This document shows, piece after piece, positions 3,006 to 21,843 of a DNA stretch of 64,000 nt. Numbering within the stretch: the stretch's first letter is position 1; the number at the start of each line of letters is the position of its first letter. The notes below the pieces were generated by a model. It saw only the letters and a list, made by a program, of their open reading frames with translations, made no database searches and was not told where the DNA came from. The DNA is from an uncultured Gammaproteobacteria bacterium. Its GTDB lineage: Bacteria; Pseudomonadota; Gammaproteobacteria; SZUA-229. The translations under genes were made by a program, and so were the position numbers. Location of the stretch: positions 83,022 to 147,021 of the forward strand of contig CAVQDO010000019.1 of assembly GCA_963711255.1 (NCBI GenBank), given 5' to 3'.

Positions 3006-3878
3006 ATGCCTATACAATTTTCACTAAAATTAGTTAGCACCGCGTTAATCCTGTTAATGCTATCAGCCTGCTCCATGAATAGCATGATGGTAAAAATGTC
3101 CATGCCAATGATGGAAAGCGGTATCGAGGCGATGCAACAGGAATCCGACCTGCAGCTGGCGGAAGACGCCATGCCCGCCAATATAAGCATGCTAAGAGGC
3201 ATGATTCAACTGGACCCGGAAAATAGCCAGTTACACGTTTATGCTGCCCAGGCCTACTACGGTTTATCTTATGGCTTCAATGAAGACAGTGATTCAATCC
3301 GCGCAGGAAAACTTTATAAACGCGGACTTAAACACGGACTGACTGCTTTACGATTAATGGGCTTTAAAAATGCGGAAAAGCTCAAGCCGAAAGAACTCGA
3401 AAAACAGTTAAAAACACTTGGCCCGGACAGCGTTGCCGCGCTGTTCTGGACGGCCAGCAACTGGGTAAAGTGGATAGATCTTAATCGTGATGATGCGGCC
3501 AGTTTGATTCAGCTGCCAAAACCAACATCAATGATGCAGCGCGTGCTGGAACTGGATGACACATTTTATTACGGCGGCGCTCATATGTACTTTGGTGTTT
3601 ATTATGGCGCACGCGCTCCAACCCTGGGCGGCGACTATAAAAAGTCAAAAAAACATTTTGACCGGGCACGAAAAATCACCAATAACAAGCTACTGATCGT
3701 CGACCTGCTGCAGGCAGAGTACCTTGCCAGGCAAATGTTTGACCAGAATGATTTTCATCAGCGTCTAAGCAGAATCATTGAAGCACCCGAGGATCTTTCA
3801 CCGGATTTAATGCTGCTAAATCAAATAGCCAAACGTAAAGCGACCTTACTGTTAAATAAGGAAAGAAAATGGTTTTAG
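3006..3878 (+). CDS. TatT-like TPR protein associated with a TRAP transporter
   Basis: Lipoprotein signal (LLMLSACS) and TPR-like helical content, immediately upstream of DctP/DctQ/DctM genes (TPAT arrangement). Confidence 0.55.
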   Translation: MPIQFSLKLVSTALILLMLSACSMNSMMVKMSMPMMESGIEAMQQESDLQLAEDAMPANISMLRGMIQLDPENSQLHVYAAQAYYGLSYGFNEDSDSIRAGKLYKRGLKHGLTALRLMGFKNAEKLKPKELEKQLKTLGPDSVAALFWTASNWVKWIDLNRDDAASLIQLPKPTSMMQRVLELDDTFYYGGAHMYFGVYYGARAPTLGGDYKKSKKHFDRARKITNNKLLIVDLLQAEYLARQMFDQNDFHQRLSRIIEAPEDLSPDLMLLNQIAKRKATLLLNKERKWF

Positions 3879-4933
3879 CAGGAAAATTTTTTCAACTTAA
3901 AAAGTTATCGCCTGGTAAATTTATTTCCGGCCTTTCAATACTTGCACTGTGCCTTCTATGCTGGCAAAACGTAATCGCACAGGAAACTTACACCTTAAAA
4001 TTTGCCACGCTCATACCTACCGGTACCGCATGGACAAAAACCTTCGATAACTGGATACAGGACATCGAAGATAAAAGCCAGGGCCGCCTAATATTTAAAA
4101 TGTACCCTGGCGGTGTTATGGGTGATGAACCCGACGTTTTACGGAAAATCCGAAAGGGCCAGCTGCATGGCGGACTTTTTAGTGGTTACGGTATCGGGCG
4201 CATTTATTCGCCCGCGCGAATTCTGGAACTGCCTTTTTTGTTTAAAAATGCCGATGAATCTGATTACGTCAGAAACCAGTTAATGCCGGAAATAGAAAAT
4301 GGCTTTCGTGACAGCGGCTTCGAGCTGATCGGCTGGCCCGAAGTTGGTTTTATACATTTCTTTTCCAAGCACAAAATACAATCCATTGAGGATATAAAAA
4401 ACAGCCGCATCTGGTTATGGCAGGGCGACCCCCTGGGCGAAGCATTATTTGCTGCTGCCGATATTAAACCTGTACCGCTGTCGATTATCGATGTTTACCC
4501 GCAATTATCTGCCCGCCACGGCAGCATTGATACCGTCTACATGTCTACCTTTGGCGCTATTGCACTGCAGTGGTATTCAAAAGTAAATTATGCCACTCAC
4601 ATTTCGGTCACCAATGCCATCGGCGCCGTTGTAGTCAGCAACGATTTTTATAACACGCTGCCTGAAGACCTGCAGCTACTGCTTAAAACATCTGGCACAC
4701 AGGCAAGCGACCTGATCCGCAAGCAGACACGCCTGGAAAACATAAAAAGCAAACAGCTGTTAATCGATAATGGCATTGAGTTTCTATGGGACTGGGACAC
4801 TGCAAATATCGATGAATTTATTACCATCCGGGACAAGGCTGCTTCACATTTAATTAAAACAAACTATATACCTCAAGAGTTTTTCAATAAAACCCGATTT
4901 CACTTAAGCCATTACCGCGAACAGAATAAATAA
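3869..4933 (+). CDS. TRAP transporter substrate-binding protein (DctP family)
   Basis: Signal peptide and DctP-like periplasmic binding protein length; operon with DctQ and DctM. Confidence 0.75.
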   Translation: MVLAGKFFQLKKLSPGKFISGLSILALCLLCWQNVIAQETYTLKFATLIPTGTAWTKTFDNWIQDIEDKSQGRLIFKMYPGGVMGDEPDVLRKIRKGQLHGGLFSGYGIGRIYSPARILELPFLFKNADESDYVRNQLMPEIENGFRDSGFELIGWPEVGFIHFFSKHKIQSIEDIKNSRIWLWQGDPLGEALFAAADIKPVPLSIIDVYPQLSARHGSIDTVYMSTFGAIALQWYSKVNYATHISVTNAIGAVVVSNDFYNTLPEDLQLLLKTSGTQASDLIRKQTRLENIKSKQLLIDNGIEFLWDWDTANIDEFITIRDKAASHLIKTNYIPQEFFNKTRFHLSHYREQNK

Positions 4934-4939
4934 ACTATT

Positions 4940-5413
4940 TTGCTGAAGAAACTTGATCAGTTATTACAAAAACTAGAAACAGGATTTGCCGCAGGCAGCC
5001 TGCTTATGTTGCTGGCGCTCTCGCTGTTTCAAATTCTAATCAGGAATATTTTTGAGTACGGCTATCCGGAAATAGACATTATTAATCGTCATTTACTGGT
5101 GTTATGCGGCATGATGGGCGCTGTACTTGCCACCTCAAAATTTTCCCACATTAAAACAGACGCGCTGAATATTTTTCTATCTGGCGAACAAAAAAAGAAA
5201 CTGCGACTGCCACTGGCCCTGTTTGCCAGCGGTACCTGTGCAGCACTTTTTTATTATTCAATTATTTTTGTTAGTGACGAATGGCAGTACCTGCCAATAA
5301 ATGAGCGCTGGACCCTGCCGTTCACCCTGATCTACCCGCTAAGTTTTTCATTAATGAGCTTTCACTTCATCAGCAACGAAATCATTCCCGGTAAACGGCC
5401 TGCTCAAACATGA
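4940..5413 (+). CDS. TRAP transporter small permease (DctQ)
   Basis: 157 aa with four hydrophobic helices, positioned between DctP and DctM. Confidence 0.65.
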   Translation: MLKKLDQLLQKLETGFAAGSLLMLLALSLFQILIRNIFEYGYPEIDIINRHLLVLCGMMGAVLATSKFSHIKTDALNIFLSGEQKKKLRLPLALFASGTCAALFYYSIIFVSDEWQYLPINERWTLPFTLIYPLSFSLMSFHFISNEIIPGKRPAQT

Positions 5414-6669
5414 TGTTTGCTGCTGTATTTCTTCTCATTATTATTGCACTCACAGGTGCGCCATTATTTACCGCACTGGCAGCAGGCGCATTGCTGGCCA
5501 GTAATTCATTAGATATCAGTCCTGACATTCTTATCATTGAAATGAACCGGCTAGCCGCATCGCCCAATATGATCGCATTGCCACTTTTTATATTTGCTGG
5601 CGTTGTTATGTCTAATGGTGGCGCAGCAAATAGATTAATAGCATTTTACCGCGCCAGTTTTGGTTTTATGCCCGGCGGCATTGCCATTGTTGCCTTAATC
5701 AGCTGCGCATTTTTTACCATGTTTTCCGGCGCTTCCGGCGTTACCATCCTTGCCCTTGGCGGCCTGCTGTACCCTATCCTTAGAAAAGAAGGTTACTCCG
5801 AAAATTTCAGCCTGGGACTGTTAACCACATCGGGTTCCCTGGGATTGTTATTCCCGCCAAGCCTGGCCATTATCATTTATGGCATCGTTGCCAACGTCAG
5901 CATTGAACATATGTTTCTTGCCGGGCTGCTGCCAGGACTTTTACTGATCCTTTTTTTAGCGGCCTACAGTGCCTATTGTGATAAATCATTTCGCGTGCAG
6001 CGCCAGCCGTTCAATTTAAACGAAGCGCTCACAACAAGCCGACATTGCATCTGGGACCTGCTAATGCCTGTTGGTATTATCCTTGGAATATTCGGTGGTT
6101 TTGTATCCTTAACAGAAGCCGCTGCTGTTACTGCCAGCTATGTCCTGTTTATTGAATCGGTTGTTTATAGATCCATTTCATTAAAAGATAAATTGTTCGG
6201 CTTATTGAGCGAAACCTGTTTACTGTTTGGCAGCCTGATCATCATTCTTCTCGTTGCACTGGGGCTGACAAATTTATTAATAGATGCCCAGGTACCGATG
6301 CAATTACTGGCCTTTATTGAAAGCTTCATCGATTCCAAAATTCAGTTTTTAATTCTATTAAATATTTTTCTGCTGCTGGTTGGCGCACTGATGGACATCT
6401 TTTCCGCTTTGCTTGTCGTGGTTCCATTGCTGCTGCCGCTTGCCAGTCGTTATAATATAGATCCCGTTCACCTGGGTATTATCTTTCTGGCTAACCTCGA
6501 AATCGGCTACTCAACACCGCCTATAGGTATCAATCTTTTTATCGCCAGCCAGCGATTCAACAAACCCGTATTAACACTTTTTCAGTCGACTATCCCGTTT
6601 TTACTGATTATGCTTGTCTGGTTATTAGTAATTACTTATTTACCCGCACTTTCCCTGTGGTGGCAATAA
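5410..6669 (+). CDS. TRAP transporter large permease (DctM)
   Basis: 419 aa polytopic permease; 4-bp overlap with the upstream dctQ. Confidence 0.8.
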   Translation: MMFAAVFLLIIIALTGAPLFTALAAGALLASNSLDISPDILIIEMNRLAASPNMIALPLFIFAGVVMSNGGAANRLIAFYRASFGFMPGGIAIVALISCAFFTMFSGASGVTILALGGLLYPILRKEGYSENFSLGLLTTSGSLGLLFPPSLAIIIYGIVANVSIEHMFLAGLLPGLLLILFLAAYSAYCDKSFRVQRQPFNLNEALTTSRHCIWDLLMPVGIILGIFGGFVSLTEAAAVTASYVLFIESVVYRSISLKDKLFGLLSETCLLFGSLIIILLVALGLTNLLIDAQVPMQLLAFIESFIDSKIQFLILLNIFLLLVGALMDIFSALLVVVPLLLPLASRYNIDPVHLGIIFLANLEIGYSTPPIGINLFIASQRFNKPVLTLFQSTIPFLLIMLVWLLVITYLPALSLWWQ

Positions 6670-6793
6670 AATCATGCCTAATATTCATCATATTGATTTA
6701 TTTGCAAAAAATCACGAAAAAACAGATGAAAAATAGAACTGACAGCGCTATCCTTGTCTGATAGCGAGATGTTATTAAACATGGAGAAACGAA

Positions 6794-8470
6794 ATGCAAA
6801 AACCCTGGTTAAATAGTTACCCGGAAGGCGTCGAAGAATTCATTGATATCAATCAGTTTTCATCGGTAGCAGATATATTTGACACCAGTATCTCCAAATT
6901 CAGCGAACTGCCCGCTTATACTAATTTTGGCAAAACAATCAGCTATCACGAACTCGATGTTTATACGGCTCAACTAGGCGCTTACCTGAAAAATGAATTG
7001 GGCCTTGAAAAAGGTGACCGCGTTGCGGTAATGATGCCTAACCTGCTGCAAAACCCGATCGCAATCTTCGGCATTCTCCGTGCGGGCCTGGTGGTGGTTA
7101 ATACCAACCCTTTATATACCGCCCGTGAACTTCAACATCAGCTCGATGACTCTGGTGCAAAAGCTATTATAATCGTTGAAAACTTCGCCCACGTATTAGA
7201 AAAAGTTATTGAAGACACGCCAGTTAAACATGTAATCACTACAAAAATGGGCGACCTGTTATCGCCGTTCAAAGGCTTCCTTATTAACACCGTTGTAAAA
7301 TATGTAAAAAAGATGGTGCCTGCCTTTCGCTTGAAAGGTTCTGTTGGCTTTAAAAAAGCCCTTAAACTTGGCTCCCAGCATCGCTTTCAAACCGTACCTG
7401 GAACGCACGACGATATTGCCTTTCTACAATATACCGGTGGTACAACGGGTGTATCCAAAGGCGCGGTACTGACTAACAAAAACATGGTTGCCAATATGCA
7501 GCAGGCTTCGGCATGGATTGACCATTGCCTTGGCGACAAAAAAGGCACCATTATCACTGCGTTACCGCTGTATCATATTTTTTCCTTAACCGCGAACTGC
7601 CTCACCTTCATGCGCTATGGCTGGTGTAATTACCTGATCACTAATCCACGTGATATCAACGGCTTCGTCAAGGAGTTGAAGTCTGTTGATTTTAATGTGC
7701 TGACCGGTGTAAACACTTTATTTAACGGCCTGTTAAACCATCCTGATTTTAAAAAACTGGACTTCAGTAATTTCTCTTTTGCACTGGGCGGCGGCATGGC
7801 CGTGCAGCGCGGTGTAGCAGAACGCTGGAAAGAAGTCACCGGCACTACATTAATTGAAGCTTATGGCCTTACTGAAACCTCACCCGCTGCCTGCATGAAT
7901 CCTATGGATCTGAAAGAATTCAACGGCAAAATCGGGCTGCCTATTTCGTCTACTGAAGTATCTATTCAGGATGATGACTGGAATGAGCTGGAAATAGGTA
8001 AACACGGTGAAATCTGTATACGCGGCCCACAGGTTATGCGTGGATACTGGGCGCGCCCGAAAGAAACCTCCAATGTATTGAGTAATGATGGCTGGCTTCA
8101 CACCGGCGACATTGGCTTTATGGACGAAGATGGTTTTGTTCAGATTGTTGACCGCAAAAAAGACATGATCCTGGTCTCAGGTTTTAATGTCTTCCCTAAC
8201 GAAGTTGAAGAAGTAATAGCCGCACACCCGAAAGTTATTGAAGTTGGCGTTATCGGCAAGCCGGATGAGCATAGCGGTGAAGTAGTAATGGCTATTGTTG
8301 TAAAAAGCGACGATTCACTAAGCGAAGAAGAATTAAGAGTATTTTGCCGTGAAAGTCTGACAAGTTATAAAGTACCAAAATCTATTATCTTTACTGATGA
8401 GCTACCTAAAACCAATGTCGGTAAAATTTTAAGGCGTGAATTACGCGACCAGTATATTACCGGCACTTAA
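6794..8470 (+). CDS. fadD: Long-chain-fatty-acid--CoA ligase
   Basis: AMP-binding motif YTGGTTGVSKGA, TGD and GKI motifs, 558 aa, N-terminus KPWLNSYPEGV typical of FadD. Confidence 0.85.
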   Translation: MQKPWLNSYPEGVEEFIDINQFSSVADIFDTSISKFSELPAYTNFGKTISYHELDVYTAQLGAYLKNELGLEKGDRVAVMMPNLLQNPIAIFGILRAGLVVVNTNPLYTARELQHQLDDSGAKAIIIVENFAHVLEKVIEDTPVKHVITTKMGDLLSPFKGFLINTVVKYVKKMVPAFRLKGSVGFKKALKLGSQHRFQTVPGTHDDIAFLQYTGGTTGVSKGAVLTNKNMVANMQQASAWIDHCLGDKKGTIITALPLYHIFSLTANCLTFMRYGWCNYLITNPRDINGFVKELKSVDFNVLTGVNTLFNGLLNHPDFKKLDFSNFSFALGGGMAVQRGVAERWKEVTGTTLIEAYGLTETSPAACMNPMDLKEFNGKIGLPISSTEVSIQDDDWNELEIGKHGEICIRGPQVMRGYWARPKETSNVLSNDGWLHTGDIGFMDEDGFVQIVDRKKDMILVSGFNVFPNEVEEVIAAHPKVIEVGVIGKPDEHSGEVVMAIVVKSDDSLSEEELRVFCRESLTSYKVPKSIIFTDELPKTNVGKILRRELRDQYITGT

Positions 8471-10766: not shown

Positions 10767-11057
10767 ATGCCCTTATCTGATGAGAAAAAAATCGAAACCC
10801 GTGACCGTATTAATCGTGACCCCGATTTTCGCTCGGCATTTTTAATACAGGCACGTAATATGTATAAAAAAGCGTTGCAATTTAACGCACAGCTTGAAGA
10901 TGAAGTGAACCGCTTTGAACAGATACTGGGCGCCGAACCTGACACCTATGAATTCATGGAAGGCGAACTCGATGAAATCGATATTTTTGAAAAAATCCTG
11001 GATGCGTTTGATAGCCAGACCCTGGAAGATGAAAAGAACACCAGCACAATTAACTAG
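10767..11057 (+). CDS. Hypothetical acidic protein
   Basis: 96 aa ORF with no recognisable motif. Confidence 0.35.
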   Translation: MPLSDEKKIETRDRINRDPDFRSAFLIQARNMYKKALQFNAQLEDEVNRFEQILGAEPDTYEFMEGELDEIDIFEKILDAFDSQTLEDEKNTSTIN

Positions 11058-11175: not shown

Positions 11176-11832
11176 ATGATCAAACTAACATACCCAATAG
11201 CAACGCTCATCTTATCAAGCATCACTCTGGCTTCATGCACACAGCCCGCAGAAGACCCTAAAGCAGTTGCCGACCAATACTGGCAGTACATGAAAAATGG
11301 AAATCATGTCGAAGCCGAAAAGCTGATTTCAATCAATAGCCGACAGGCATTTGAACAACACAAAAATCGTATCAATACTATCGATCAGCTCTCGACCAAT
11401 GAAGCAACAACGATCGTGAGCACATCAATAAGCACAACAAACCCCAGCACCAACTACACGCATACGGAAACTTTTAACACTACGCTTGTGCTGCAGCAGG
11501 GCAAATGGAAAATAGACATAAACCAGTCACAGATTCCACCAGCACCCAGTGCAGAAGAAGAACAAATGCAACAATTGGCCGAAGAACTGTCAGAGTCCAT
11601 GCAGGAAAATATAGAATCCATCGATGACGCCATGAGCGAAGGCATGCAGCTGTTCAATGAAGCATTGCGCGAGGGCTCAAAAGAAATGGGCGACTCATTG
11701 CTACATTTAATGAACGAACTCAACAGCACAATGCACGAGTCGATCGAAAAAATGAAAAAACGCCGTGAACAGCAGCAGGAACAGTTGCCGCAAAACCAGC
11801 CTGACCCTGAAGGGGGCGAAGGCATGATTTAA
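11176..11832 (+). CDS. Hypothetical lipoprotein, Q/E-rich
   Basis: Lipobox LASC after the signal peptide; low-complexity E/Q-rich C-terminus. Confidence 0.5.
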   Translation: MIKLTYPIATLILSSITLASCTQPAEDPKAVADQYWQYMKNGNHVEAEKLISINSRQAFEQHKNRINTIDQLSTNEATTIVSTSISTTNPSTNYTHTETFNTTLVLQQGKWKIDINQSQIPPAPSAEEEQMQQLAEELSESMQENIESIDDAMSEGMQLFNEALREGSKEMGDSLLHLMNELNSTMHESIEKMKKRREQQQEQLPQNQPDPEGGEGMI

Positions 11833-12073
11833 AGCACCGGCAGATAAAATATAATAAGCGGATAACATAGCTACTTCTATTACTATCACAACACTAATAC
11901 ACACGCCGGGCACTTTTTGTAAAATCAGAAAATACCGTCCGTTGCTCTGTTAACATCAAGTAGACAAATATTTTCACACTCTCACTTTTAACTGAGTTAC
12001 TATTGTGCGAATAAATCTAATAAAAAAACAAATAACCCTTAATAATATAGGGTTAATTTGGAATCCAGCTTTT

Positions 12074-12904
12074 ATGAATAATTGTCTACGCGCTTCTGCA
12101 ATACTTTTCCTCCTGTTGTTACAGATTGCCAACCCGGTTTTTGCTGAAAAAATTTATTCCGTCGGTGTCGTTCCCCAGTTTGAAGCCCGCCGAATAGCAA
12201 CAATTTGGCAGCCTATTCTTGATGAAGTAAGCCAGCGCAGCGGGGTAAAACTTCAACTCAAAGCATCACCCAATATTCCCCGCTTCGAAGAACAATTCGC
12301 TGCCGGTGAATTTGATTTCGCTTATATGAACCCCTATCACGCTATACAGGCAAATAAAATACAGGGTTATACCCCGCTGCTGAGAGATAACGGCCGTAAC
12401 CTTTTTGGCATCATCGTGGTGAAAAAAGACAGTCCGATAATGTCGGTAGAAGAACTTGACGGCAAGACGGTTGCTTTCCCCGCACCGAATGCACTCGGTG
12501 CGGCACTACTACCACGTGCAGAGTTCAACCGGAAATTTAACATTAAAGTAAAAGAACTCTACGTCAAGAGCCATAGCTCGGTGTATCTAAACGTACTTCT
12601 GGGTAAAGCAGATGCAGGCGGCGGTGTGCAGAAGACCCTGTCACAGCAACCGGAAAACATTCGTCAGCAACTGCGAATCCTGTATAAAACAAGTATCGTA
12701 CCGCCGCATCCATTTACTGCACATCCGCGCATAGACAAATCTATCCAGGAGAAAGTAGCCGCTGCATTCCTCGAACTGGGCAACAGCAAAAAAGGCAAAG
12801 CTTTACTAAAAAAAATTCCCATGAAAAAAATTGGCACTGCCTCAATTGAGGATTATGAGCCAGTTAAAAAAATGGAACTGGACAAATACTATGTAGGCAA
12901 ATAA
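12074..12904 (+). CDS. PhnD/SsuA-like periplasmic substrate-binding protein, probable sensor-kinase partner
   Basis: Signal peptide MNNCLRASAILFLLLLQIANPVFA; phosphonate-binding-like fold proteins often precede sensor kinases; the track ORF starts at 12005 but an internal Met plus signal peptide is preferred. Confidence 0.6.
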   Translation: MNNCLRASAILFLLLLQIANPVFAEKIYSVGVVPQFEARRIATIWQPILDEVSQRSGVKLQLKASPNIPRFEEQFAAGEFDFAYMNPYHAIQANKIQGYTPLLRDNGRNLFGIIVVKKDSPIMSVEELDGKTVAFPAPNALGAALLPRAEFNRKFNIKVKELYVKSHSSVYLNVLLGKADAGGGVQKTLSQQPENIRQQLRILYKTSIVPPHPFTAHPRIDKSIQEKVAAAFLELGNSKKGKALLKKIPMKKIGTASIEDYEPVKKMELDKYYVGK

Positions 12905-12908
12905 TTAC

Positions 12909-15900
12909 ATGAACCTTCACCTGAAACTGTTTATACCTACATTATTGCTACTCGCGGCGATCGCGACAACCATTCATTTTTACTGGCTGCCTGATTATCT
13001 TACCCTGGAAATCGAAGAACAGGAAAAATATGAACTCAGCTTTGCCGACTTACTGGGCACGGCGCTGGTTCCCGACCTGCTCAATAACGACCTCGCCATA
13101 ACACACAGCACACTCGACCAGGTGCTGGAAAATCGTAAATACTGGTATGCCGTTAAACTGTTCGACCGCGATAACCAGCTCATCTATCCACTGACCGAAC
13201 CGCAACTGCCAGCAGATATTGAACTCAAAACACTGGATCACGAAATCATATTCGATGGCAACCGCATCGCCAGCTTCACCGTCTGGATTGACATCAACGC
13301 TGCGAGTTCTCAGCGTGTTGATCATATCTATCATCTCGAACATCTATTGCTGATCACACTGCTGGTGGCTGCGCTATTAGCTACACTGTTGCAGGACAGG
13401 TGGATCAGGTTTCCGTTGCGGCAACTGGCCAATTTTGCCAGCGATATTGCACGCGGCAAATATGATTCTCGCATGGAATACCAGTCCCATGATGAAGTCG
13501 GAAAACTGGTAGCCGCTTTTAACAGCATGCGCCGACAAATACGGCAGCGTGAAGCCGACCTGGTAGAAAGCCAGGCACGCCACAAGGCAGTCATTGAAAA
13601 CGCCGTTGACGGCATTATCTCGATTGACGCACACGGCAAGGTGCAAAGCTTTAATCCTGCGGCAGAAAAAATCTTCGGTTACAACCATAACGAAGTAAAC
13701 GGAAAGAATATCAAAATGCTGATGCCGCAGCCTTACCAGCGAGAACACGACGGCTACCTGTACAACTATATTGCAACAGGCAATAAAAAAGTTATCGACA
13801 TCGGGCGCGAAGTAAAAGGTCAGCGCAAAGACGGCTCAACCTTCCCGCTGGATCTGGCCGTTAGTGAAGTTGACCTGGGAGACCGCCGCCTGTTTATCGG
13901 CATGATACGCGACATCACTGAGAGAAAATTTGCCGAGCAGGAAGCAGCACGTTATTCCAATGCGCTGGAACAGCTGCACATTATTACGTCAGATATAGAA
14001 ACTGATTTCAAGCAGAAAATTCACAATGTTCTCGAACTTGGCCGCCAGCTGCTTGATATGCCGCTGGCAATCATCAGCCATATCCAGGCAGAGCGTTATA
14101 TCGTCGAACATGTTGCCAGCCCCGATGGTGCGCCTCCACCCGGCACCGAATTCGTGCTGGGTGAAACCTATTGCTGTCACACGCTGGCCACCAATACAGC
14201 CACCGGCTTTGAGCATGCAGGGGAAAGCGAAATAAACAACCATCCCTGTTATAAAAACTTCGGTCTTGAAGCTTACATCGGTGCGCCGGTTATTGTTAAC
14301 GGCGCGCTTTATGGCACACTGAATTTTTCCAGCCCGAAACCGCATGCCGGTAAATTCAGTAGCGTCGACTATAACCTGATCAGGTTATTTGCCCAATGGG
14401 TAAGCAGCGAAATTACCCGCGTTCAGGCGGAGACAGAACTCTATAATACAACAGCACTTCGGCAAGCCATTCTGGACAGCGCCAATTTCAGTATTATTTC
14501 AACAGACGTAAACGGCATAATACGTCTATTTAATCATGGCGCCGAGCGCATGCTCGGCTACAGTGCCGAAGAACTCATCGACAAGGAAAGTCCGGCGATA
14601 TTGCACGACATTGAAGAAGTCGTATCAAGGGCAAAAGAACTTACAGTAGAACTAGGACAAAGCATCGAACCAGGCTTTGACGTTTTTATCAGCAAAGCAA
14701 AAGCCGGAATTGCGGATGAAAGGGAGTGGACATACATACGCAAAGATAAAACACGCTTACCGGTAATGCTTTCTATCACCGCAGTGCATGACTCCAGTGG
14801 CAACATCGTCGGCTACCTTGGCATCGGCAGCGACCTGACCGAGCGCAAAAAAATCGATTTGATGAAAAGCGAATTTGTTTCTACCGTCAGCCATGAATTG
14901 CGCACCCCGCTTACTTCCATACGCGGTGCATTAAGCCTGGTGCTTGGCAAAGGTGCAGCCGACCTGCCGCCCAAGCTGCAACGCATGCTGGAAACCGCCA
15001 ACCGCAACAGTGAACGCCTGACATTTCTGATTAACGATATCCTTGATCTTGAAAAAATAAATGCCGGGAAACTCGACCTTCGCCTCGAAGCCGTAAACCT
15101 GGCCGCACTGGCAAAAAGAGCCGTTGATGAAAACGAAGGTTATGCGCTATCACACAACGTCAAGCTAAAACTTTCATTTGAGTCTGATGAGACGACGACA
15201 GTACGCGTGGACGAACATCGCCTGTTACAGGTTTTTGCCAACCTTATTTCCAATGCCGTCAAATACTCACCTGAAGAAGATACTGTTGACGTCGTAGTAA
15301 AAAGAACCAACGGTCGGGTACGCGTTTCTGTCATCGATAAAGGCGCAGGTATACCCGTTGAGTTCCGTCCGCGTATTTTTGGCCGTTTCGCTCAGGCCGA
15401 CAGTTCAGACACGCGCGAGAAAGGCGGTACCGGCCTTGGCCTGACCATCACAAAAGCTATCATTGAACAGCTTGGCGGCAGCATCGACTTCAACAGTGAA
15501 CCCGGCGAAGGCGCAGAGTTTTATTTCGAACTCTCCGCATGGGACCAGACCGTTGAAAACACACAGCTGGATAAATCACTGCCCAAAGTACTGGTCTGTG
15601 AAGACGACCCGGACGTTGCTTATGTACTGGTCAACCTTCTGGAGCAGGAAGGGCTTTCCGGTGACATTGCTGCAACCGCCAGCAGTGCTCGAGATTTGCT
15701 GCAAAAAAACAACTACAGCCTGTTACTGCTTGACCTGGTTCTGCCAGATGCAAACGGCCTGGAACTTGTACGTGATATTCGTAAGGCAGAAAGCACCAGG
15801 AAATTGCCCATTATCGTTATTTCCGGTCGTGCCAACGAAGGACGTAAAGAATTCAACGGAGATGCCGTTACTGTAGCAGACTGGCTGCAAAAACCGATTG

Positions 15901-16298
15901 ACCGTGACCGGCTGTCGCATGCGGTTGCCGATGCAATACATGGCAATCACCGCCCGAATATTCTACATATCGAAGATGATCTTGATGTTATACAGGTATC
16001 CCAGGTATTGTTTGAAGATGAGGCGGACTTTGAATATGCAACCTCACTGGAAGAGGCCCATAAAAAACTGGCTAAAAAAGTATATGACCTGGTCATTGTT
16101 GATATCTCATTACCTGACGGCTCGGGGCTGGATCTACTGGACGAAATCGGCCGCGACTGCCCAATCGTGCTTTTTTCCGGCCAGGAGACCCAGGCTGAAA
16201 TCAGCGATAAGGTGAATGCAACATTAACCAAGTCACTGACCAGCAATGATGAGCTGATGAGCACAGTAAAACGATTATTGAAACACAACATCCAATAA
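12909..16298 (+). CDS. Hybrid sensor histidine kinase (TM-periplasmic-TM-HAMP-PAS-GAF-PAS-HisKA-HATPase-REC-REC)
   Basis: H-box SHELRTPLTSIRGAL, HATPase G-boxes (GGTGLGL), and two C-terminal receiver domains with conserved Asp (LLLDLVLPD, VIVDISLPD). Confidence 0.85.
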   Translation: MNLHLKLFIPTLLLLAAIATTIHFYWLPDYLTLEIEEQEKYELSFADLLGTALVPDLLNNDLAITHSTLDQVLENRKYWYAVKLFDRDNQLIYPLTEPQLPADIELKTLDHEIIFDGNRIASFTVWIDINAASSQRVDHIYHLEHLLLITLLVAALLATLLQDRWIRFPLRQLANFASDIARGKYDSRMEYQSHDEVGKLVAAFNSMRRQIRQREADLVESQARHKAVIENAVDGIISIDAHGKVQSFNPAAEKIFGYNHNEVNGKNIKMLMPQPYQREHDGYLYNYIATGNKKVIDIGREVKGQRKDGSTFPLDLAVSEVDLGDRRLFIGMIRDITERKFAEQEAARYSNALEQLHIITSDIETDFKQKIHNVLELGRQLLDMPLAIISHIQAERYIVEHVASPDGAPPPGTEFVLGETYCCHTLATNTATGFEHAGESEINNHPCYKNFGLEAYIGAPVIVNGALYGTLNFSSPKPHAGKFSSVDYNLIRLFAQWVSSEITRVQAETELYNTTALRQAILDSANFSIISTDVNGIIRLFNHGAERMLGYSAEELIDKESPAILHDIEEVVSRAKELTVELGQSIEPGFDVFISKAKAGIADEREWTYIRKDKTRLPVMLSITAVHDSSGNIVGYLGIGSDLTERKKIDLMKSEFVSTVSHELRTPLTSIRGALSLVLGKGAADLPPKLQRMLETANRNSERLTFLINDILDLEKINAGKLDLRLEAVNLAALAKRAVDENEGYALSHNVKLKLSFESDETTTVRVDEHRLLQVFANLISNAVKYSPEEDTVDVVVKRTNGRVRVSVIDKGAGIPVEFRPRIFGRFAQADSSDTREKGGTGLGLTITKAIIEQLGGSIDFNSEPGEGAEFYFELSAWDQTVENTQLDKSLPKVLVCEDDPDVAYVLVNLLEQEGLSGDIAATASSARDLLQKNNYSLLLLDLVLPDANGLELVRDIRKAESTRKLPIIVISGRANEGRKEFNGDAVTVADWLQKPIDRDRLSHAVADAIHGNHRPNILHIEDDLDVIQVSQVLFEDEADFEYATSLEEAHKKLAKKVYDLVIVDISLPDGSGLDLLDEIGRDCPIVLFSGQETQAEISDKVNATLTKSLTSNDELMSTVKRLLKHNIQ

Positions 16299-16311
16299 AC
16301 GAGATGCGAAT

Positions 16312-16680
16312 ATGAAATTACTCTACGTAGAAGACGAAGCCGATATCCGCGAAATTGCCGAATTCGCCCTCGAAGACGAAGGCTTCGATATCCTTTTTTG
16401 CGAGTCTGGTGAAAAGGCAGTGGAACAGGCGGCTGATTTTCAACCGGAAGCCATCCTGCTGGATGTTATGATGCCCGGCATGGATGGGCCCACCACACTA
16501 CAAAACCTGCGAACCCTGCCTGGACTGGAATCCACACCGGTCATCTTTCTTACCGCAAAGGTTCAGCCCAATGAAATTCAAAACTTTATTTCACTCGGCG
16601 CCATCGACGTCATCCCGAAACCCTTTGAACCGATGACACTGGCTGAACAGATTCGCGAAATACTGAGCCGTAGCCGCTAA
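16312..16680 (+). CDS. Single-domain response regulator (CheY-like receiver)
   Basis: 122 aa with DE...D...K receiver signature (LLDVMMPGMDG). Confidence 0.85.
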   Translation: MKLLYVEDEADIREIAEFALEDEGFDILFCESGEKAVEQAADFQPEAILLDVMMPGMDGPTTLQNLRTLPGLESTPVIFLTAKVQPNEIQNFISLGAIDVIPKPFEPMTLAEQIREILSRSR

Positions 16681-18311
16681 TGAGCACCAGCAAACAGGAA
16701 AAATTACGCAAGCTACAGGAAAAGTACATATCCCAGCTGCCAGGAAAACTCAATGCACTAAACCGGGTATGGCTGCATTCGCTGCACCATAATGACATTG
16801 ACGGCTTAAATCAGCTTCGCCAGCTGGCACATAACCTTGCCGGATCTGCAGGCACATTCGGTTTTCCTGCCGTCAGCGTCGAAGCCAGGAACCTTGAAGA
16901 CATACTGAGAAACCTGAGTGATATACAGGATTTAAACAACATCGTCGAAGAAAATATTGCCGATGCGCTGCAACGGATTGTCAGCTACGTTGAACTCGGA
17001 CCAGAGAATGTTGAAAGTCTTACACCGCTTGATCATGAAAAAGCTTACAGCACTGCTCAGTTTGACCGTCTGATTTACGTTATTGAAGATGACGACCTGC
17101 TGGCCCGCGAAATTGCCACCCAGCTTTATTACTTTGATTACGAAGTGGAAACCTTCTCCTCCACCGCGCGAGCAATGGAAGCAATAAAACTGCGCATGCC
17201 AACAGCTATGATTATTGATATACAACTGCCGGACGGCGATCTCGCCGGCCCGGAATTTGCGAGAGTATTTAACGAATTTTCTTCCACCGCCATACCTTCC
17301 ATATTTATTTCTTCACGTGATGACTGGCATGCACGCCTTGCCGCAGTGCAGGCCAATGGCAGCGCATACCTGACAAAACCGATAGACTTCAACGACCTGC
17401 TCGAACGCCTGGAAATGCTGACGGTTAGACAAATGCCAGAACCGCTCAAAATACTTATTGTTGATGACATGGAAGTACTGGCAGAACACTATGCCACTGT
17501 CTTAAGAAACGCCAACATGGAAGTGAAAACGGTTACCGATATCAATGACATGCTTGAAGCCTTAAGTGACTTTAAGCCGGAACTAATCTTAATGGATATC
17601 TACATGCCCCAGTGTTCCGGCCTTGATGCCGCAAAAATAATACGGCAAAAAGACGAACTGCTTGGCGTACCCATCGTTTTCCTGTCAACCGAAGCCGATC
17701 CTCTGCAGCATATTTCAGCCATGGAGCTGGGCGGCGACGACTTCCTGCAAAAACCCATTACCGATGACCGTCTGCTTGTTTCGGTTAGAACTCGCGCCCA
17801 GCGCTTTCGCCGTCTGCGCAGCCATATGCTTTGCGATGGACTCACCGGCCTGCTCAACCACGTTGCCGTCAGAACCCACCTCGAATCAGAAATTTCACGC
17901 GCACAACGCCAGAACGAAGCGCTTAGTTTCGCCATGATTGATATCGACAACTTCAAACAGGTAAATGATACCTACGGCCACCCTGTCGGTGACCGGGTAA
18001 TAAAAAGCATTGCGCGCATGCTAAAAAAACGTTTACGCAAATCAGATCTCATCGGCCGATATGGCGGCGAAGAGTTTGCCATCATACTGCCGGAAACCGA
18101 GTTAAATACTGCAAAAAAATTACTGGATGATGTACGGCAGAATTTTTCACAAATTACCCAGCAGGATCACGAAACCCAGTTTTACTGCACGCTCAGTGCA
18201 GGCGTAACGCAGCTATCAAAAAGCGACTCCCTGGACAGCCTGGTTAACACCGCCGATGAAGCACTCTACGAAGCAAAACATGCCGGTCGCAATCAGGTGT
18301 GTATAAAATGA
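16680..18311 (+). CDS. Hpt-REC-REC-GGDEF diguanylate cyclase
   Basis: N-terminal Hpt-like helix bundle (HNLAGSAGTFG), two receiver domains, C-terminal GGDEF with an intact GGEEF active site (RYGGEEFAI); start overlaps the upstream stop (TAATG). Confidence 0.85.
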   Translation: MSTSKQEKLRKLQEKYISQLPGKLNALNRVWLHSLHHNDIDGLNQLRQLAHNLAGSAGTFGFPAVSVEARNLEDILRNLSDIQDLNNIVEENIADALQRIVSYVELGPENVESLTPLDHEKAYSTAQFDRLIYVIEDDDLLAREIATQLYYFDYEVETFSSTARAMEAIKLRMPTAMIIDIQLPDGDLAGPEFARVFNEFSSTAIPSIFISSRDDWHARLAAVQANGSAYLTKPIDFNDLLERLEMLTVRQMPEPLKILIVDDMEVLAEHYATVLRNANMEVKTVTDINDMLEALSDFKPELILMDIYMPQCSGLDAAKIIRQKDELLGVPIVFLSTEADPLQHISAMELGGDDFLQKPITDDRLLVSVRTRAQRFRRLRSHMLCDGLTGLLNHVAVRTHLESEISRAQRQNEALSFAMIDIDNFKQVNDTYGHPVGDRVIKSIARMLKKRLRKSDLIGRYGGEEFAIILPETELNTAKKLLDDVRQNFSQITQQDHETQFYCTLSAGVTQLSKSDSLDSLVNTADEALYEAKHAGRNQVCIK

Positions 18312-19552
18312 AACCCGCGGCCATACCGGATAATGAAGAACAACGAATTCATCGATTAAATGAGCTGGGCATTCTTGATACGCTAGAAGAACAGGCCTAT
18401 GATGACCTTACTCAGCTGGCGGCAAAAATATGTGATACACCAATCGCGCTGGTGAGCCTGGTAGATACTGATCGACAATGGTTCAAATCCCACCATGGCC
18501 TGGACGCGCACGAAACTCCCCGCGATATCGCATTCTGCGCGCACGCTATTCTAGATGACCATGTATTTGTTGTAGAGGATTCCAGCAAAGACGAGCGCTT
18601 TCATGATAATCCATTAGCGACAGGCCATCCAGATGTAAAGTTCTACGCGGGCGCACCCCTGATAATGAGCGACAATCTCAGGCTCGGAACATTATGCGTT
18701 ATAGCAAATGAGCCTCGAACGATTTCCGATACTCAAAAGGCGGCCCTTGAGGCCCTGGCACGACAAACCATAAGCCAGATGGAGCTTCGCCTTAAAGTAA
18801 AAGAACTGCAAAGTCTGGACAACGCCAAGGACGAATTCATTTCCATGGTTAGTCACGAACTAAGGACACCGCTAACATCCATTACCGGCTCGCTTTCCCT
18901 GCTTTCAAACAACAAAGTTGGCCCATTAAGCAGTAAACAACAGAATATGGTGGCCATCGCTGCACGCAACAGTGACCGGCTTCTCTGCATCGTTAATGAC
19001 ATACTCGACCATGCAAAAATGGAAGCTGGTAAATTTGAAATCAGCCGTAAACCACATAAAGTTTTTGACCTACTTGAAAAAGCACTGGAACTAAATCAGC
19101 CCTATTGTGAAAAATGTAACTGCGAAATAATTCTGAAATTTAACGATGCGGATAAAGACAGGATAATTGAGTGCGATGAAAACCGCCTGTTGCAGGTGTT
19201 AAGCAATCTTATTTCTAACGCGGCGAAAGTTTCCAGCAATAAAGATATCATAGAGCTATCTCTTGTTATAGATAGCGACAAGGCACGTTTTGAAGTTACC
19301 GATCACGGACCAGGAATATCAAAAGAACAACAGAAGCACCTTTTCCAACGGTTCAAACAAATTGAAACCTCGGGAAACCAGAAAATGCCCGGTACAGGCC
19401 TTGGCCTCAGGATCAGCAAACATATTGTAGAACTTCACGATGGCCAGATCGATTTTGAATCATTACCCGGCGATTACACTAAATTTTATTTCACCATTAC
19501 ACTTAAGAAAATAAAACACGACACTCATCCGGATCGAAACTGCCGCCAGTGA
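18308..19552 (+). CDS. Cytoplasmic GAF-domain histidine kinase
   Basis: GAF-like N-terminus, H-box SHELRTPLTSITGSL, HATPase motifs (GTGLGL); ATGA overlap with the upstream gene. Confidence 0.8.
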   Translation: MKPAAIPDNEEQRIHRLNELGILDTLEEQAYDDLTQLAAKICDTPIALVSLVDTDRQWFKSHHGLDAHETPRDIAFCAHAILDDHVFVVEDSSKDERFHDNPLATGHPDVKFYAGAPLIMSDNLRLGTLCVIANEPRTISDTQKAALEALARQTISQMELRLKVKELQSLDNAKDEFISMVSHELRTPLTSITGSLSLLSNNKVGPLSSKQQNMVAIAARNSDRLLCIVNDILDHAKMEAGKFEISRKPHKVFDLLEKALELNQPYCEKCNCEIILKFNDADKDRIIECDENRLLQVLSNLISNAAKVSSNKDIIELSLVIDSDKARFEVTDHGPGISKEQQKHLFQRFKQIETSGNQKMPGTGLGLRISKHIVELHDGQIDFESLPGDYTKFYFTITLKKIKHDTHPDRNCRQ

Positions 19553-19692: not shown

Positions 19693-20064
19693 ATGGAATT
19701 TTTTCAAATTATTAATCACATCAAGACAGATACCGAAAAATTAAAAAATCTACTTACACTCAACTGCCTGCCTGAACTTTGCGACTCTATTGACACCGTT
19801 ACTTCTGATAATGCACATCAAGCTGAGATATATTGTCTCTGGGGTGAATTTAGTGTCATTCGCGATGAGATAAGAAATGGTGTTCGCTTCTCGTTGGTTA
19901 ATTGCCCGCATGCCCTTGCATGGACTATTACGCATCATGAGGAAGTAGAAAACATCGTCATTCACTGCACTATCGATGATATTGAAACAGATGAAGACTT
20001 TGCCGACTCGATTGAATTATTTATCGAAGACTGGTCAACAGGCGTTTCCAGGTCATTACAATAA
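19693..20064 (+). CDS. Hypothetical acidic protein
   Basis: 123 aa ORF with no recognisable motifs. Confidence 0.35.
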   Translation: MEFFQIINHIKTDTEKLKNLLTLNCLPELCDSIDTVTSDNAHQAEIYCLWGEFSVIRDEIRNGVRFSLVNCPHALAWTITHHEEVENIVIHCTIDDIETDEDFADSIELFIEDWSTGVSRSLQ

Positions 20065-20887: not shown

Positions 20888-21334
20888 ATGAACTCGCTAA
20901 CATTAAAACGAATCGCTTATGTAAGTCATCAGGTCCATGATTTTACTGATGAAGACGTACTTGAACTAATGATTGCAGCACGACAGAAAAATACAAATCT
21001 GGAGATTACCGGCTTGCTTCTATTTGATAAACCAGTATTTTTACAATTGCTGGAAGGGCCACCAGCAGCCGTAGATAAATTAATTGCTGAAATCATCGCT
21101 GATGACAGACACAAGGATGTGGACATTATATTTTCGCAAGAAAACTGCCCTCAGCGGGAATTTCCACGATGGAGCATGGATTGTAAAATACTTGGCCATC
21201 GCAATGGCGAAGAGTACAGCGAACTAGATGCGCGAGTAAAACAGGTATTAAGTGCAGCCAAACCTAATGGCGATCTGGCACACCAGTTATTGCTGGATTA
21301 TAGAGAAGAAAAGAATTCTTCTATGGATATTTAG
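20888..21334 (+). CDS. Short BLUF-domain blue-light photoreceptor
   Basis: BLUF signature: conserved Tyr (YVSHQ), ITGLLLF...FLQLLEG and the downstream Trp/Met region; 148 aa standalone. Confidence 0.75.
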   Translation: MNSLTLKRIAYVSHQVHDFTDEDVLELMIAARQKNTNLEITGLLLFDKPVFLQLLEGPPAAVDKLIAEIIADDRHKDVDIIFSQENCPQREFPRWSMDCKILGHRNGEEYSELDARVKQVLSAAKPNGDLAHQLLLDYREEKNSSMDI

Positions 21335-21372: not shown

Positions 21373-21843
21373 ATGAATAATACTAATTGCTATCTAGCAC
21401 CCGTCCTGTTTGCATGCTGCGCACTATTGTATTCAACAAATGTATTGCCTGAACAAAAAGCAAAGAAATCATATACTGTCGATTTCAACAATCCTCCCGA
21501 GAAGACCGAAACACTAAACGAGATAAAAGACAGGATCAATTCAACTTTTGCAGATCAACCAAACATGCGCATGATGATTTACGGAAGAGGACTGGCGTTT
21601 TTCCTGGACCCGGGCACAATACAAAATACCAGCTTGCAATTTAACAGCAACAACCAGTCTGCTCAAAAAGAAATAGCAGACCTGAAGAGTAAAAATGTGG
21701 ACTTGATAGTCTGCGAGAAACCGGAAAACAGGTCGATAAGAAAGATAACAACAGATCTTGATGGCAGACATTTGAGTACTCACAAGCAGAACGACAGAAT
21801 AACTCACCTTAAGCAGCAGGGTTACATCTGTATCAAACCCTGA
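21373..21843 (+). CDS. Hypothetical secreted protein
   Basis: Signal-peptide-like N-terminus; no recognisable motif. Confidence 0.35.
   Translation: MNNTNCYLAPVLFACCALLYSTNVLPEQKAKKSYTVDFNNPPEKTETLNEIKDRINSTFADQPNMRMMIYGRGLAFFLDPGTIQNTSLQFNSNNQSAQKEIADLKSKNVDLIVCEKPENRSIRKITTDLDGRHLSTHKQNDRITHLKQQGYICIKP

What the first reader, a model, noticed from the sequence alone, without database searches (positions are those of the whole stretch)
12005..19552. Five-gene phosphorelay cluster ending in a GGDEF cyclase: PhnD-like SBP, hybrid HK with two REC, CheY-like REC, Hpt-REC-REC-GGDEF, GAF-HK
The cluster is tightly packed, with 1-4 bp overlaps and translational coupling at 16680 and 18308. It encodes a periplasmic PhnD/SsuA-like binding protein, a 1129-aa HAMP-PAS-GAF-PAS hybrid kinase with two receivers, a standalone receiver, an Hpt plus two receivers fused to an active GGEEF cyclase, and a soluble GAF kinase. 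The combination points to multi-input, branched phosphotransfer controlling c-di-GMP synthesis. Separate (not fused) PhnD-like sensor partners for kinases are poorly characterised.
Basis: partly seen in the sequence, partly recalled or inferred. Interest (0 to 1): 0.55.

Follow-up and report, generated by a model that had tools for sequence, protein, structure and literature searches.

The report
Binding-protein-gated phosphorelay driving c-di-GMP synthesis
[quoted passage not shown] It is built wholly from well-known parts, and its sensor type already has published precedents.

Summary
There are three corrections:
- The binding protein most likely starts at ATG 12074.
- There are five receiver domains, not six.
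- Only two of the four junctions overlap.

Comparative data refine the picture.
- **Conserved unit.** It has four genes: binding protein, hybrid kinase with two receivers, single receiver, and Hpt-REC-REC-GGDEF. It recurs in marine Gammaproteobacteria MAGs and metagenomes.
- **Accessory parts.** The GAF kinase is present only in close relatives. The kinase's GAF-PAS insert is likewise variable.
- **Sensor cassette.** The binding protein belongs to a PF12974 subfamily that has lost the STS oxyanion motif of PhnD/PtxB. In 61 of 64 metagenomic loci it is followed directly by a protein with the same N-terminal periplasmic module. That module is predicted to be a small PAS/Cache-like fold, and outputs vary (kinase, hybrid kinase, GGDEF).

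Precedents are AioX-AioS and XAC2383-XAC2382. No characterised homologue of the relay was found.

Verdict: an uncharacterised member of known kinds, of modest interest. The ligand, phosphate route and sign of regulation remain untested.

The parts
12074..12904 (+). Periplasmic PF12974 (PhnD-fold) solute-binding protein, 276 aa from ATG 12074 (the ORF opens at GTG 12005). It has a signal-peptide-like N-terminus. The STS oxyanion loop is replaced by A-L-G.
   Evidence: Pfam 198.6 bits. NCBIfam PhnD equivalog 91.8 vs cutoff 261. AF2 pLDDT 91. Foldseek to PhnD/PtxB/ArrX/AioX/XAC2383, TM 0.65-0.78. Motif loss.
12909..16298 (+). Hybrid histidine kinase, 1129 aa: TM1, periplasmic module, TM2, HAMP, PAS, GAF, PAS, HisKA, HATPase, REC, REC. 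It has no Hpt.
   Evidence: Pfam, TM scan and motifs, ortholog comparison.
12984..13334 (+). Periplasmic sensor module of the kinase (residues 26-142), predicted to be a single PAS/Cache (PDC)-like fold. It is the proposed docking site for the binding protein.
14019..14828 (+). GAF-PAS2 segment of the kinase. It is present in the window, L086 and L091, but absent from the 818-821-aa orthologs.
14862..15536 (+). HisKA (His662) plus HATPase_c kinase core of the hybrid kinase.
15588..16283 (+). Two C-terminal receiver domains of the hybrid kinase. Both keep the phospho-Asp. REC2 has Lys-Ser instead of the usual Lys-Pro.
16312..16680 (+). Stand-alone receiver (122 aa). It is the most conserved component and has Val at the beta5 aromatic switch position.
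   Evidence: Pfam, ortholog alignment, nearest PDB match RR468.
16680..18311 (+). Hpt-REC-REC-GGDEF response regulator and diguanylate cyclase (543 aa). Hpt His51, GGEEF 462-466, RxxD 453-456. Its start overlaps the stop of the receiver gene (TAATG).
18308..19552 (+). Soluble GAF-HisKA-HATPase kinase (414 aa from ATG 18308, which overlaps the cyclase stop as ATGA). It is a lineage-specific accessory gene.
   Evidence: Orthologs occur only in L082 and L083.

Best explanation
This is a binding-protein-gated, multistep His-Asp-His-Asp phosphorelay whose output is c-di-GMP synthesis.

Shown by sequence and comparison:
- A secreted PF12974-fold binding protein is encoded 4 nt upstream of a two-TM hybrid kinase.
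- The kinase's roughly 115-residue periplasmic module is a predicted PAS/Cache-like domain.
- This gene pair is a conserved cassette found with different cytoplasmic outputs.
- The kinase has an intact DHp/CA core and two receivers but no Hpt.
- The only Hpt is fused to the N-terminus of a REC-REC-GGDEF protein with intact A- and I-sites.
- A single-domain receiver gene overlaps the start of that gene in every ortholog examined.

Inferred:
1. The binding protein, with or without an unknown non-phosphonate ligand, docks on the periplasmic module and sets the kinase/phosphatase balance through the HAMP domain.
2. Cytoplasmic PAS and GAF domains add further inputs.
3. Phosphate moves from His662 to a kinase receiver Asp, then to Hpt His51, then to a receiver of the cyclase. 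That is most likely REC2, which is the best conserved and is DgcR/WspR-like.
4. Phosphorylation drives dimerisation and GGDEF activity, which the RxxD site limits by product inhibition.
5. The stand-alone receiver competes for phosphate as a sink or side branch.
6. In this lineage the soluble GAF kinase shares the hybrid kinase's DHp helix-1 type and feeds the same receivers as a second input.
For: - **Domains and residues:**
- **Operon structure:**. The receiver-cyclase overlap is conserved in L002, L082, L083 and L086.
- **Conserved four-gene unit:** found at SBP identities of about 60-80% in L002, L082, L083, L086, L088, L095, L100 and L108, and as contig-truncated copies in L098 and L099.
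- **Relay core with other sensors:** the core (HK-REC-REC, receiver, Hpt-REC-REC-GGDEF) also occurs with PAS, MHYT or GAF sensors in L003, L007 and L010.
- **SBP-to-sensor linkage:** 61/64 metagenomic loci. The reverse check gave 2/2.
- **Sensor family outputs:** among 66 family members, 48 have HisKA, 29 REC and 15 GGDEF.
- **Not a transporter partner:** there are no ABC permease or ATPase genes beside the SBP in six annotated loci.
- **Ligand pocket:** STS is lost while His is retained, and the replacement residues are invariant within the subfamily. The motif is defined in PMC5700983.
- **Periplasmic fold:**. Matches include the LuxQ and HptS sensor domains, which bind SBPs.
- **Conserved relay residues:** Hpt His, both cyclase Asp residues, GGEEF and RxxD are conserved across 11 homologues.
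- **Switch residues:** the cyclase receivers carry the aromatic switch residue (Tyr, Phe) typical of terminal receivers. The stand-alone receiver has Val (framework from PMC9981736).
- **Nearest structures:** REC2-GGDEF is closest to DgcR, PleD and WspR.
- **Shared DHp type:** the GAF-kinase and hybrid-kinase DHp helix 1 share PLT[SA]I.G[SA]L[SG]L in three genomes.
Against: - Nothing here measures phosphotransfer, binding or c-di-GMP.
- With five intact receivers and three phosphorylatable His residues, several routes are equally compatible with the sequence.
- The role of the kinase's second receiver (Lys-Ser instead of Lys-Pro) and of the cyclase's first receiver is unknown.
- The GAF kinase is missing from most orthologous clusters and is unlinked in L082, so its connection rests only on the ATGA overlap and the DHp similarity.
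- Promoter and terminator scans were no better than shuffled sequence, so the operon boundaries are inferred from spacing.
- The sign of regulation by the ligand cannot be predicted.
- By my recollection of the XAC2383-XAC2382 paper, the binding protein there inhibits its partner.
Confidence: 0.6

Rival explanations
1. The stand-alone receiver is the obligatory intermediate. The route is kinase His to single receiver Asp to Hpt His to cyclase receiver Asp, as in Spo0F. The two receivers fused to the kinase are regulatory or act as phosphate sinks, rather than being on the main path.
For: The single receiver is the most conserved protein of the unit (52-89% identity across clusters). It is always translationally coupled to the Hpt protein. 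It lacks the aromatic switch residue, as intermediary receivers often do (PMC9981736). The kinase's REC2 has an atypical Lys-Ser.
Against: Both kinase receivers keep every phosphorylation-site residue in all orthologs. Fused receivers normally out-compete free ones through proximity (established knowledge of hybrid kinases). The single receiver lacks the FATGUY-type motif that PMC9981736 describes in several intermediary receivers.
Confidence: 0.2
2. The GAF kinase is an unrelated orphan kinase that merely lies next to the relay in this lineage and signals to a receiver encoded elsewhere.
For: It is absent downstream of the cyclase in L002, L086 and L088, and is separated by a 55-aa ORF and a cation-efflux gene in L082. 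The relay core exists without it in Legionella and Pseudomonas loci.
Against: In the window it has a 4-nt ATGA overlap with the cyclase gene. It is retained near the cluster in three genomes at 61-72% identity, with the same DHp helix-1 type as the hybrid kinase. In Pseudomonas sp. NA-150 a related GAF domain is fused to the hybrid kinase itself.
Confidence: 0.3
3. The binding protein is an ordinary phosphonate/phosphite uptake component (PhnD/PtxB) and its position beside the kinase is coincidental.
For: Pfam PF12974 match and PhnD-like fold. Source annotations call homologues phosphonate ABC substrate-binding proteins.
Against: It scores far below the PhnD equivalog and subfamily cutoffs. 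The STS oxyanion motif is lost and replaced by subfamily-invariant residues. No ABC genes are adjacent. The same sensor module lies immediately downstream in 61/64 loci.
Confidence: 0.03

Closest known systems
[quoted passage not shown] 2018, J Biol Chem 293:10767)
   Same: A separate PF12974-fold periplasmic binding protein is encoded next to a membrane signalling protein with a small periplasmic Cache-type domain. XAC2383 structures (5ub3-5ub7) give the highest TM-scores to the SBP model (0.76-0.78). The output of both systems is c-di-GMP synthesis.
   Different: - In Xanthomonas the partner is itself the cyclase. Here it is a hybrid kinase, and the cyclase lies three phosphotransfer steps downstream.
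- Sequence similarity to XAC2383 is marginal (E 0.0017) and is absent from the profile search.
- I could not read the paper. Its content is from my memory, and only its title is documented, through the reference list of PMC12271599.
AioX-AioS-AioR and ArrX/ArxX sensor systems (arsenite/arsenate)
   Same: A PF12974 binding protein acts as the ligand sensor for a separate membrane histidine kinase (PMC8050422). ArrX and AioX are sequence and structure matches of the SBP.
   Different: Those are simple kinase-to-transcription-factor systems for oxyanions. Here the relay is multistep and ends in a cyclase, and the pocket residues differ (the ArrX loop is MSFSG versus NALGA).
LuxP-LuxQ-LuxU-LuxO and TorT-TorS-TorR
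   Different: The binding-protein families differ. Hpt is a free protein (LuxU) or fused to the kinase (TorS), not to the response regulator. The output there is transcription.
PleD / WspR / Leptospira DgcR response-regulator cyclases, and the divK-pleD operon
   Same: A REC-GGDEF with GGEEF and RxxD is presumably activated by phosphorylation-driven dimerisation, and the best PDB matches are DgcR, PleD and WspR. As in divK-pleD, a single-domain receiver gene lies directly upstream, and two kinases may converge.
   Different: There is an extra N-terminal Hpt. Both receivers keep the phospho-Asp, whereas PleD's second receiver is a degenerate adaptor (my knowledge). The PleD equivalog score is 238.6 vs cutoff 474. 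The single receiver resembles RR468, and DivK is not among the 60 best PDB matches shown.
ShkA-ShpA-TacA of Caulobacter (hybrid kinase with two receiver-type domains)
   Same: A DHp-CA-REC-REC hybrid kinase that needs a separate Hpt carrier (PMC6969517, abstract seen).
   Different: From my knowledge, ShkA's first receiver is a pseudo-receiver that binds c-di-GMP. Here both keep the phospho-Asp, and no c-di-GMP-binding motif was tested.

Membership tests
PhnD/PtxB phosphonate-phosphite ABC binding proteins | Match to Pfam PF12974 and a class II SBP fold like PhnD | tested here: met
   198.6 bits vs cutoff 27. AF2 model pLDDT 91. Foldseek to 3p7i and 5o2j, E about 6e-21, TM about 0.7.
PhnD/PtxB phosphonate-phosphite ABC binding proteins | Conserved STS-H oxyanion-binding motif (PMC5700983) | tested here: not met
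   STS aligns to A-L-G, and only the His is kept. NALGA is conserved across 117 subfamily members.
PhnD/PtxB phosphonate-phosphite ABC binding proteins | Curated equivalog/subfamily score and adjacency to ABC permease and ATPase genes | tested here: not met
   TIGR03431 91.8 vs 261.1, and TIGR01098 89 vs 112. No ABC genes flank the SBP in the window or in L081-L086.
Bipartite SBP plus periplasmic-Cache receptor pairs (XAC2383-XAC2382 / AioX-AioS type) | A PF12974 SBP gene adjacent to and co-oriented with a two-TM signalling protein, with the linkage conserved while outputs vary | tested here: met
   4-nt gap in the window. 61/64 metagenomic loci. 2/2 in the reverse check. Outputs are HK, hybrid HK and GGDEF.
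Bipartite SBP plus periplasmic-Cache receptor pairs (XAC2383-XAC2382 / AioX-AioS type) | The partner's periplasmic domain has a PAS/Cache (PDC) fold | tested here: met
Bipartite SBP plus periplasmic-Cache receptor pairs (XAC2383-XAC2382 / AioX-AioS type) | Specific sequence homology to XAC2383 and XAC2382 | tested here: inconclusive
   XAC2383: phmmer E 0.0017, not recovered by the family profile, but the best TM-score. No XAC2382 sequence was available to compare.
Bipartite SBP plus periplasmic-Cache receptor pairs (XAC2383-XAC2382 / AioX-AioS type) | Physical interaction of the SBP with the periplasmic domain, and ligand-dependent control of output | not testable with these tools
   Needs binding assays or a multimer structure prediction.
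Multistep His-Asp-His-Asp phosphorelay | A hybrid kinase with a catalytic core and fused receiver(s), a separate Hpt with a conserved His, and a terminal receiver with an output domain | tested here: met
   Hpt His and receiver Asp residues are conserved in 11 homologues. The kinase has no Hpt hit.
Multistep His-Asp-His-Asp phosphorelay | Demonstrated phosphotransfer along the chain | not testable with these tools
   Requires radiolabel or Phos-tag assays with purified proteins.
PleD-type response-regulator diguanylate cyclase | GG[DE]EF A-site, RxxD I-site five residues upstream, and a phosphorylatable receiver adjacent to GGDEF | tested here: met
   RKSDLIGRYGGEEF at 453-466. REC2-GGDEF aligns to DgcR, PleD and WspR.
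PleD-type response-regulator diguanylate cyclase | PleD equivalog score and the REC-REC-GGDEF architecture with no other domain | tested here: not met
   NF007135 238.6 vs cutoff 474. There is an additional N-terminal Hpt.

The most novel reading that the evidence does not exclude
The PF12974 subfamily with the NALGA / VPQF / AYMNPY / SHSSVY pocket, together with its cognate sCache-HAMP module, is a widespread marine sensor cassette for a ligand that is not a phosphorus oxyanion. The pocket has become less polar, as in the sterol-binding relative BstB. In this reading, the conserved Hpt-REC-REC-GGDEF with its coupled single receiver is a distinct relay design. The output protein carries its own phosphotransferase and a built-in competing receiver, so it could integrate two kinases into one c-di-GMP decision.
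Probability: 0.3. Interest if true: 0.5.

Novelty: new member of a known kind. Interest (0 to 1): 0.3.

Why it matters
If the model holds, this cassette links an unidentified periplasmic signal to c-di-GMP, and hence probably to the surface-attached versus free-living choice, in uncultured marine Gammaproteobacteria related to Cycloclasticus.

The practical value lies in the sensor. The sensor module has 676 cluster representatives at 50% identity, and in the loci sampled it is paired with a binding protein that has a conserved, non-phosphonate pocket. Identifying that ligand would assign a signal to all of them, whether they are kinases or cyclases.

The relay itself adds an example of an Hpt fused to a response regulator rather than to the kinase. 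That is a convenient system for asking how phosphate is partitioned among several intact receivers.

None of this overturns current understanding of two-component signalling.

Tried and rejected
- **Source organism.** Exact look-ups of the cyclase and the SBP gave no contig. The window proteins are unnamed singletons on a 191-kb contig. The nearest named relative is a Cycloclasticus MAG.
- **Word-indexed searches with sub-regions.** Searches with Hpt-REC1 and with the periplasmic module returned only a few fragments and no named proteins.
- **Literature.** Seven full-text searches found no characterised homologue of the relay or the Hpt-REC-REC-GGDEF architecture. The XAC2383 paper and the E. 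coli PhnD structure paper are not held.
- **DivK-like identity of the single receiver.** Rejected. The nearest solved structures are RR468-type receivers.
- **Promoter and terminator scans.** Counts matched the shuffled controls, so they say nothing about operon ends.
- **NCBIfam.** No equivalog cutoff was reached by any of the five proteins.
- **AlphaFold database fold search.** The library was unavailable.
- **Pocket geometry.** Model coordinates could not be inspected, so pocket statements rest on alignment to solved homologues.

Full report
**Observation**

The five ORFs exist as described, all on the + strand. Pfam gives the following.
- Gene 1 is Phosphonate-bd (PF12974, 198.6 bits).
- Gene 2 has HAMP, two PAS, GAF, HisKA, HATPase_c and two Response_reg domains, and no Hpt.
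- Gene 3 is a lone Response_reg.
- Gene 4 has Hpt (36.7 bits against a cutoff of 24.6), two Response_reg and GGDEF.
- Gene 5 has GAF, HisKA and HATPase_c.

The junctions read from the sequence are a 4-nt gap, a 13-nt gap, a TAATG overlap at 16680 and an ATGA overlap at 18308-18311.

A hydropathy scan shows a signal-peptide-like N-terminus on the binding protein. It also shows two TM helices in the kinase (residues 7-25 and 143-161) and none in the other three proteins.

The catalytic residues are intact.
- H-boxes at His662 (hybrid kinase) and His183 (GAF kinase), with N, G1 and G2 boxes.
- Hpt His51 in HNLAGS.
- GGEEF at 462-466, preceded by RKSD at the I-site position.
- All five receivers have the acidic pair, the phospho-Asp, the Ser/Thr and the Lys.

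Three details of the finding need correcting.
- The binding protein most likely starts at ATG 12074 rather than GTG 12005, because most listed homologues, including the closest, are 276 aa.
- There are five receivers, not six.
- Only two of the four junctions overlap.

**Source and context**

The window proteins are unnamed singletons from a 191-kb NCBI/ENA contig. The closest loci are uncultured marine Gammaproteobacteria MAGs. The nearest named relative is a Cycloclasticus MAG.

The flanks are ordinary chromosomal genes.
- Upstream: a TAtT-DctPQM TRAP transporter, an acyl-CoA synthetase, DUF924 and an outer-membrane beta-barrel.
- Downstream: a glycine-transporter-family membrane protein, a BLUF protein and a PlsB-like acyltransferase.

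These flanks are syntenic with locus L083.

**What is conserved**

I mapped the window's domains onto related loci. The results are as follows.
- **Four-gene unit.** It comprises the binding protein, a hybrid kinase with two receivers, a single receiver and Hpt-REC-REC-GGDEF. It is present in L002, L082, L083, L086, L088, L095, L100 and L108, and as contig-truncated copies in L098 and L099. Binding-protein identity ranges from about 60% to 80%.
- **Coupled genes.** The receiver and cyclase genes overlap by one base in every annotated ortholog.
- **Relay core with other sensors.** The core without the binding protein also occurs with different sensor regions. These are PAS repeats in L003, MHYT-PAS in a Legionella MAG (L007) and GAF-PAS-PAS in Pseudomonas sp. 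NA-150 (L010).
- **GAF kinase.** It is found only in L083, 66 nt after the cyclase, and in L082, after two intervening genes. It is absent from L002, L086 and L088.
- **GAF-PAS insert.** The kinase's internal GAF-PAS segment is also variable. It is present in the window, L086 and L091, and absent from the 818-821-aa orthologs.

The conserved entity is therefore a four-gene unit. The fifth gene is a lineage-specific addition.

**The sensor cassette**

The binding protein has the PhnD fold. The AF2 model has pLDDT 91. Foldseek matches PhnD, PtxB, ArrX, AioX, HtxB and XAC2383 at TM 0.65-0.78 and 13-22% identity.

It is not a PhnD or PtxB by other criteria.
- It scores far below the curated PhnD equivalog and subfamily cutoffs.
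- The STS part of the STS-H motif, which hydrogen-bonds the phosphorus oxyanion in PtxB and PhnD (PMC5700983), aligns to A-L-G. Only the His is kept.
- The replacement residues are invariant or nearly so across 117 subfamily members. They are VPQF, AYMNPY, PNALGA, SHSSVY and AGGG.
- No ABC permease or ATPase gene lies next to it in the window or in six annotated loci.

Instead, the binding-protein gene is tightly linked to a particular sensor module. In 61 of 64 metagenomic loci with enough downstream sequence, the next gene begins with the same N-terminal module as the window's kinase. The module runs TM1, about 115 periplasmic residues, TM2, then HAMP. Two distant members checked in the reverse direction both have a PF12974 gene immediately upstream.

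The module defines a family of 676 cluster representatives (E at most 1e-3), always at the protein N-terminus. Of 66 full-length members scanned, 61 have HAMP, 48 HisKA, 29 a receiver, 15 GGDEF and 2 EAL.

Conserved adjacency with varying outputs is the standard genomic signature of a two-protein sensor. Physical interaction remains an inference.

**The relay**

The hybrid kinase has no Hpt, and the only Hpt in the cluster is on the cyclase. The simplest route is therefore kinase His662 to kinase receiver Asp, to Hpt His51, to cyclase receiver Asp.
- Hpt His, both cyclase receiver Asp residues, GGEEF and RxxD are conserved across 11 homologues from six or more lineages.
- The cyclase's REC2-GGDEF half is most similar to Leptospira DgcR, PleD and WspR. 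Activation by phosphorylation-driven dimerisation, with product inhibition at RxxD, is the expected mechanism (established knowledge of these enzymes).
- The motif GHPVGD keeps the Asp that, to my knowledge, specifies GTP rather than the ATP/GTP mix of Hypr GGDEFs. The product should therefore be c-di-GMP.
- Both cyclase receivers carry the aromatic beta5 switch residue (Tyr, Phe). The single receiver has an invariant Val there, and the kinase's REC2 has Thr and an unusual Lys-Ser in place of Lys-Pro. Within the framework of PMC9981736, this fits terminal allosteric receivers on the cyclase and non-allosteric intermediary or sink roles for the others. It is only indicative.
- The single receiver is the most conserved protein of the unit, and its nearest solved relatives are RR468-type receivers, not DivK.
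- The GAF kinase and the hybrid kinase share a DHp helix-1 pattern, PLT[SA]I.G[SA]L[SG]L, in all three genomes that have both. That pattern differs from the PMN[AG][IV]IG type of the other hybrid kinases in the fetched loci. Shared receiver partners are plausible but unproven.

**Rivals**
- A Spo0F-like route through the single receiver cannot be excluded.
- The GAF kinase may be functionally independent.
- The idea that the binding protein is simply a phosphonate transporter component is strongly disfavoured.
- The sign of regulation is unknown.

**Comparison with what is known**
- **Separate PF12974 sensors for kinases** are documented for AioX-AioS (PMC8050422). ArrX is a structural and sequence match.
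- **XAC2383-XAC2382 in Xanthomonas citri** pairs a PF12974 protein with the periplasmic Cache domain of a diguanylate cyclase. This rests on the paper's title, seen in the reference list of PMC12271599, and on my memory of its content, because the paper itself was not available. XAC2383 gives the best TM-scores to the model, but the sequence relationship is marginal.
- **LuxPQ-LuxU-LuxO and TorT-TorS** show the same logic with other binding-protein families.
- **divK-pleD** shows the single-receiver-plus-cyclase gene pair.

I found no characterised example of Hpt fused N-terminally to a REC-REC-GGDEF protein, or of this four-gene unit. The library searched is incomplete, so this is an absence of evidence only.

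**Verdict**

The finding is correct as an annotation, and the cluster is a real, conserved signalling unit. It is an uncharacterised member of well-known kinds, namely a binding-protein-dependent sensor kinase, a multistep phosphorelay and a response-regulator cyclase. Two mildly unusual features are the position of the Hpt and the binding-protein subfamily with a remodelled pocket of unknown ligand.

A specialist would not be surprised, and interest is modest (0.3). The most useful follow-up is to identify the ligand of the binding-protein/sCache cassette, which would inform several hundred related sensors.

Noticed in passing
window 20888-21334 and 21373-21843: A short BLUF blue-light sensor protein (148 aa, Pfam E 3e-27) is followed 39 nt later by a 156-aa ORF with one N-terminal hydrophobic segment and no Pfam hit. 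The pair lies about 1.3 kb downstream of the c-di-GMP cluster. Short BLUF proteins usually act through a partner protein, which may be this neighbour.
   Followed up: partly
window 10767-11057 and 11176-11832: Two ORFs (96 and 218 aa) lie directly upstream of the cluster with no significant Pfam match. ORFs of matching size and position (96 and 220 aa) occur in the syntenic locus L083. They may be real genes of unknown function, possibly associated with the cluster.
   Followed up: partly
window 19693-20064; L083 16687-17517: After the GAF kinase the window has a 123-aa ORF with no Pfam hit. At the equivalent place, the syntenic locus L083 carries a 276-aa stand-alone GGDEF protein. The region downstream of the cluster is therefore variable between close relatives.
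   Followed up: no
L098 3-5867; L112 366-5463; L102 4626-9913: Some metagenomic contigs carry two copies of the binding-protein/sensor cassette or of the whole unit in tandem. This suggests duplication and divergence of the system within a genome.
   Followed up: no
window 15960-16283 (kinase REC2) and orthologs: The second receiver of the hybrid kinase has Lys-Ser or Lys-Ala instead of the near-universal Lys-Pro in all 13 sequences compared, while it keeps the phospho-Asp. The first receiver has an invariant Trp at the switch position and a long, conserved alpha4-beta5 insertion (EGRKEFNGDAVTVADW).
   Followed up: partly
window 3006-8470: A TAtT-DctP-DctQ-DctM (TRAP-T type) transporter operon is followed by an AMP-binding acyl-CoA synthetase-like gene. 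It is syntenic with L083.
   Followed up: no
L010 6758-9598 (Pseudomonas sp. NA-150): In this genome the hybrid kinase of the same relay core carries an N-terminal GAF domain about 30% identical to the GAF of the window's separate GAF kinase. The same input domain thus appears fused in one lineage and as a separate kinase in another.
   Followed up: partly
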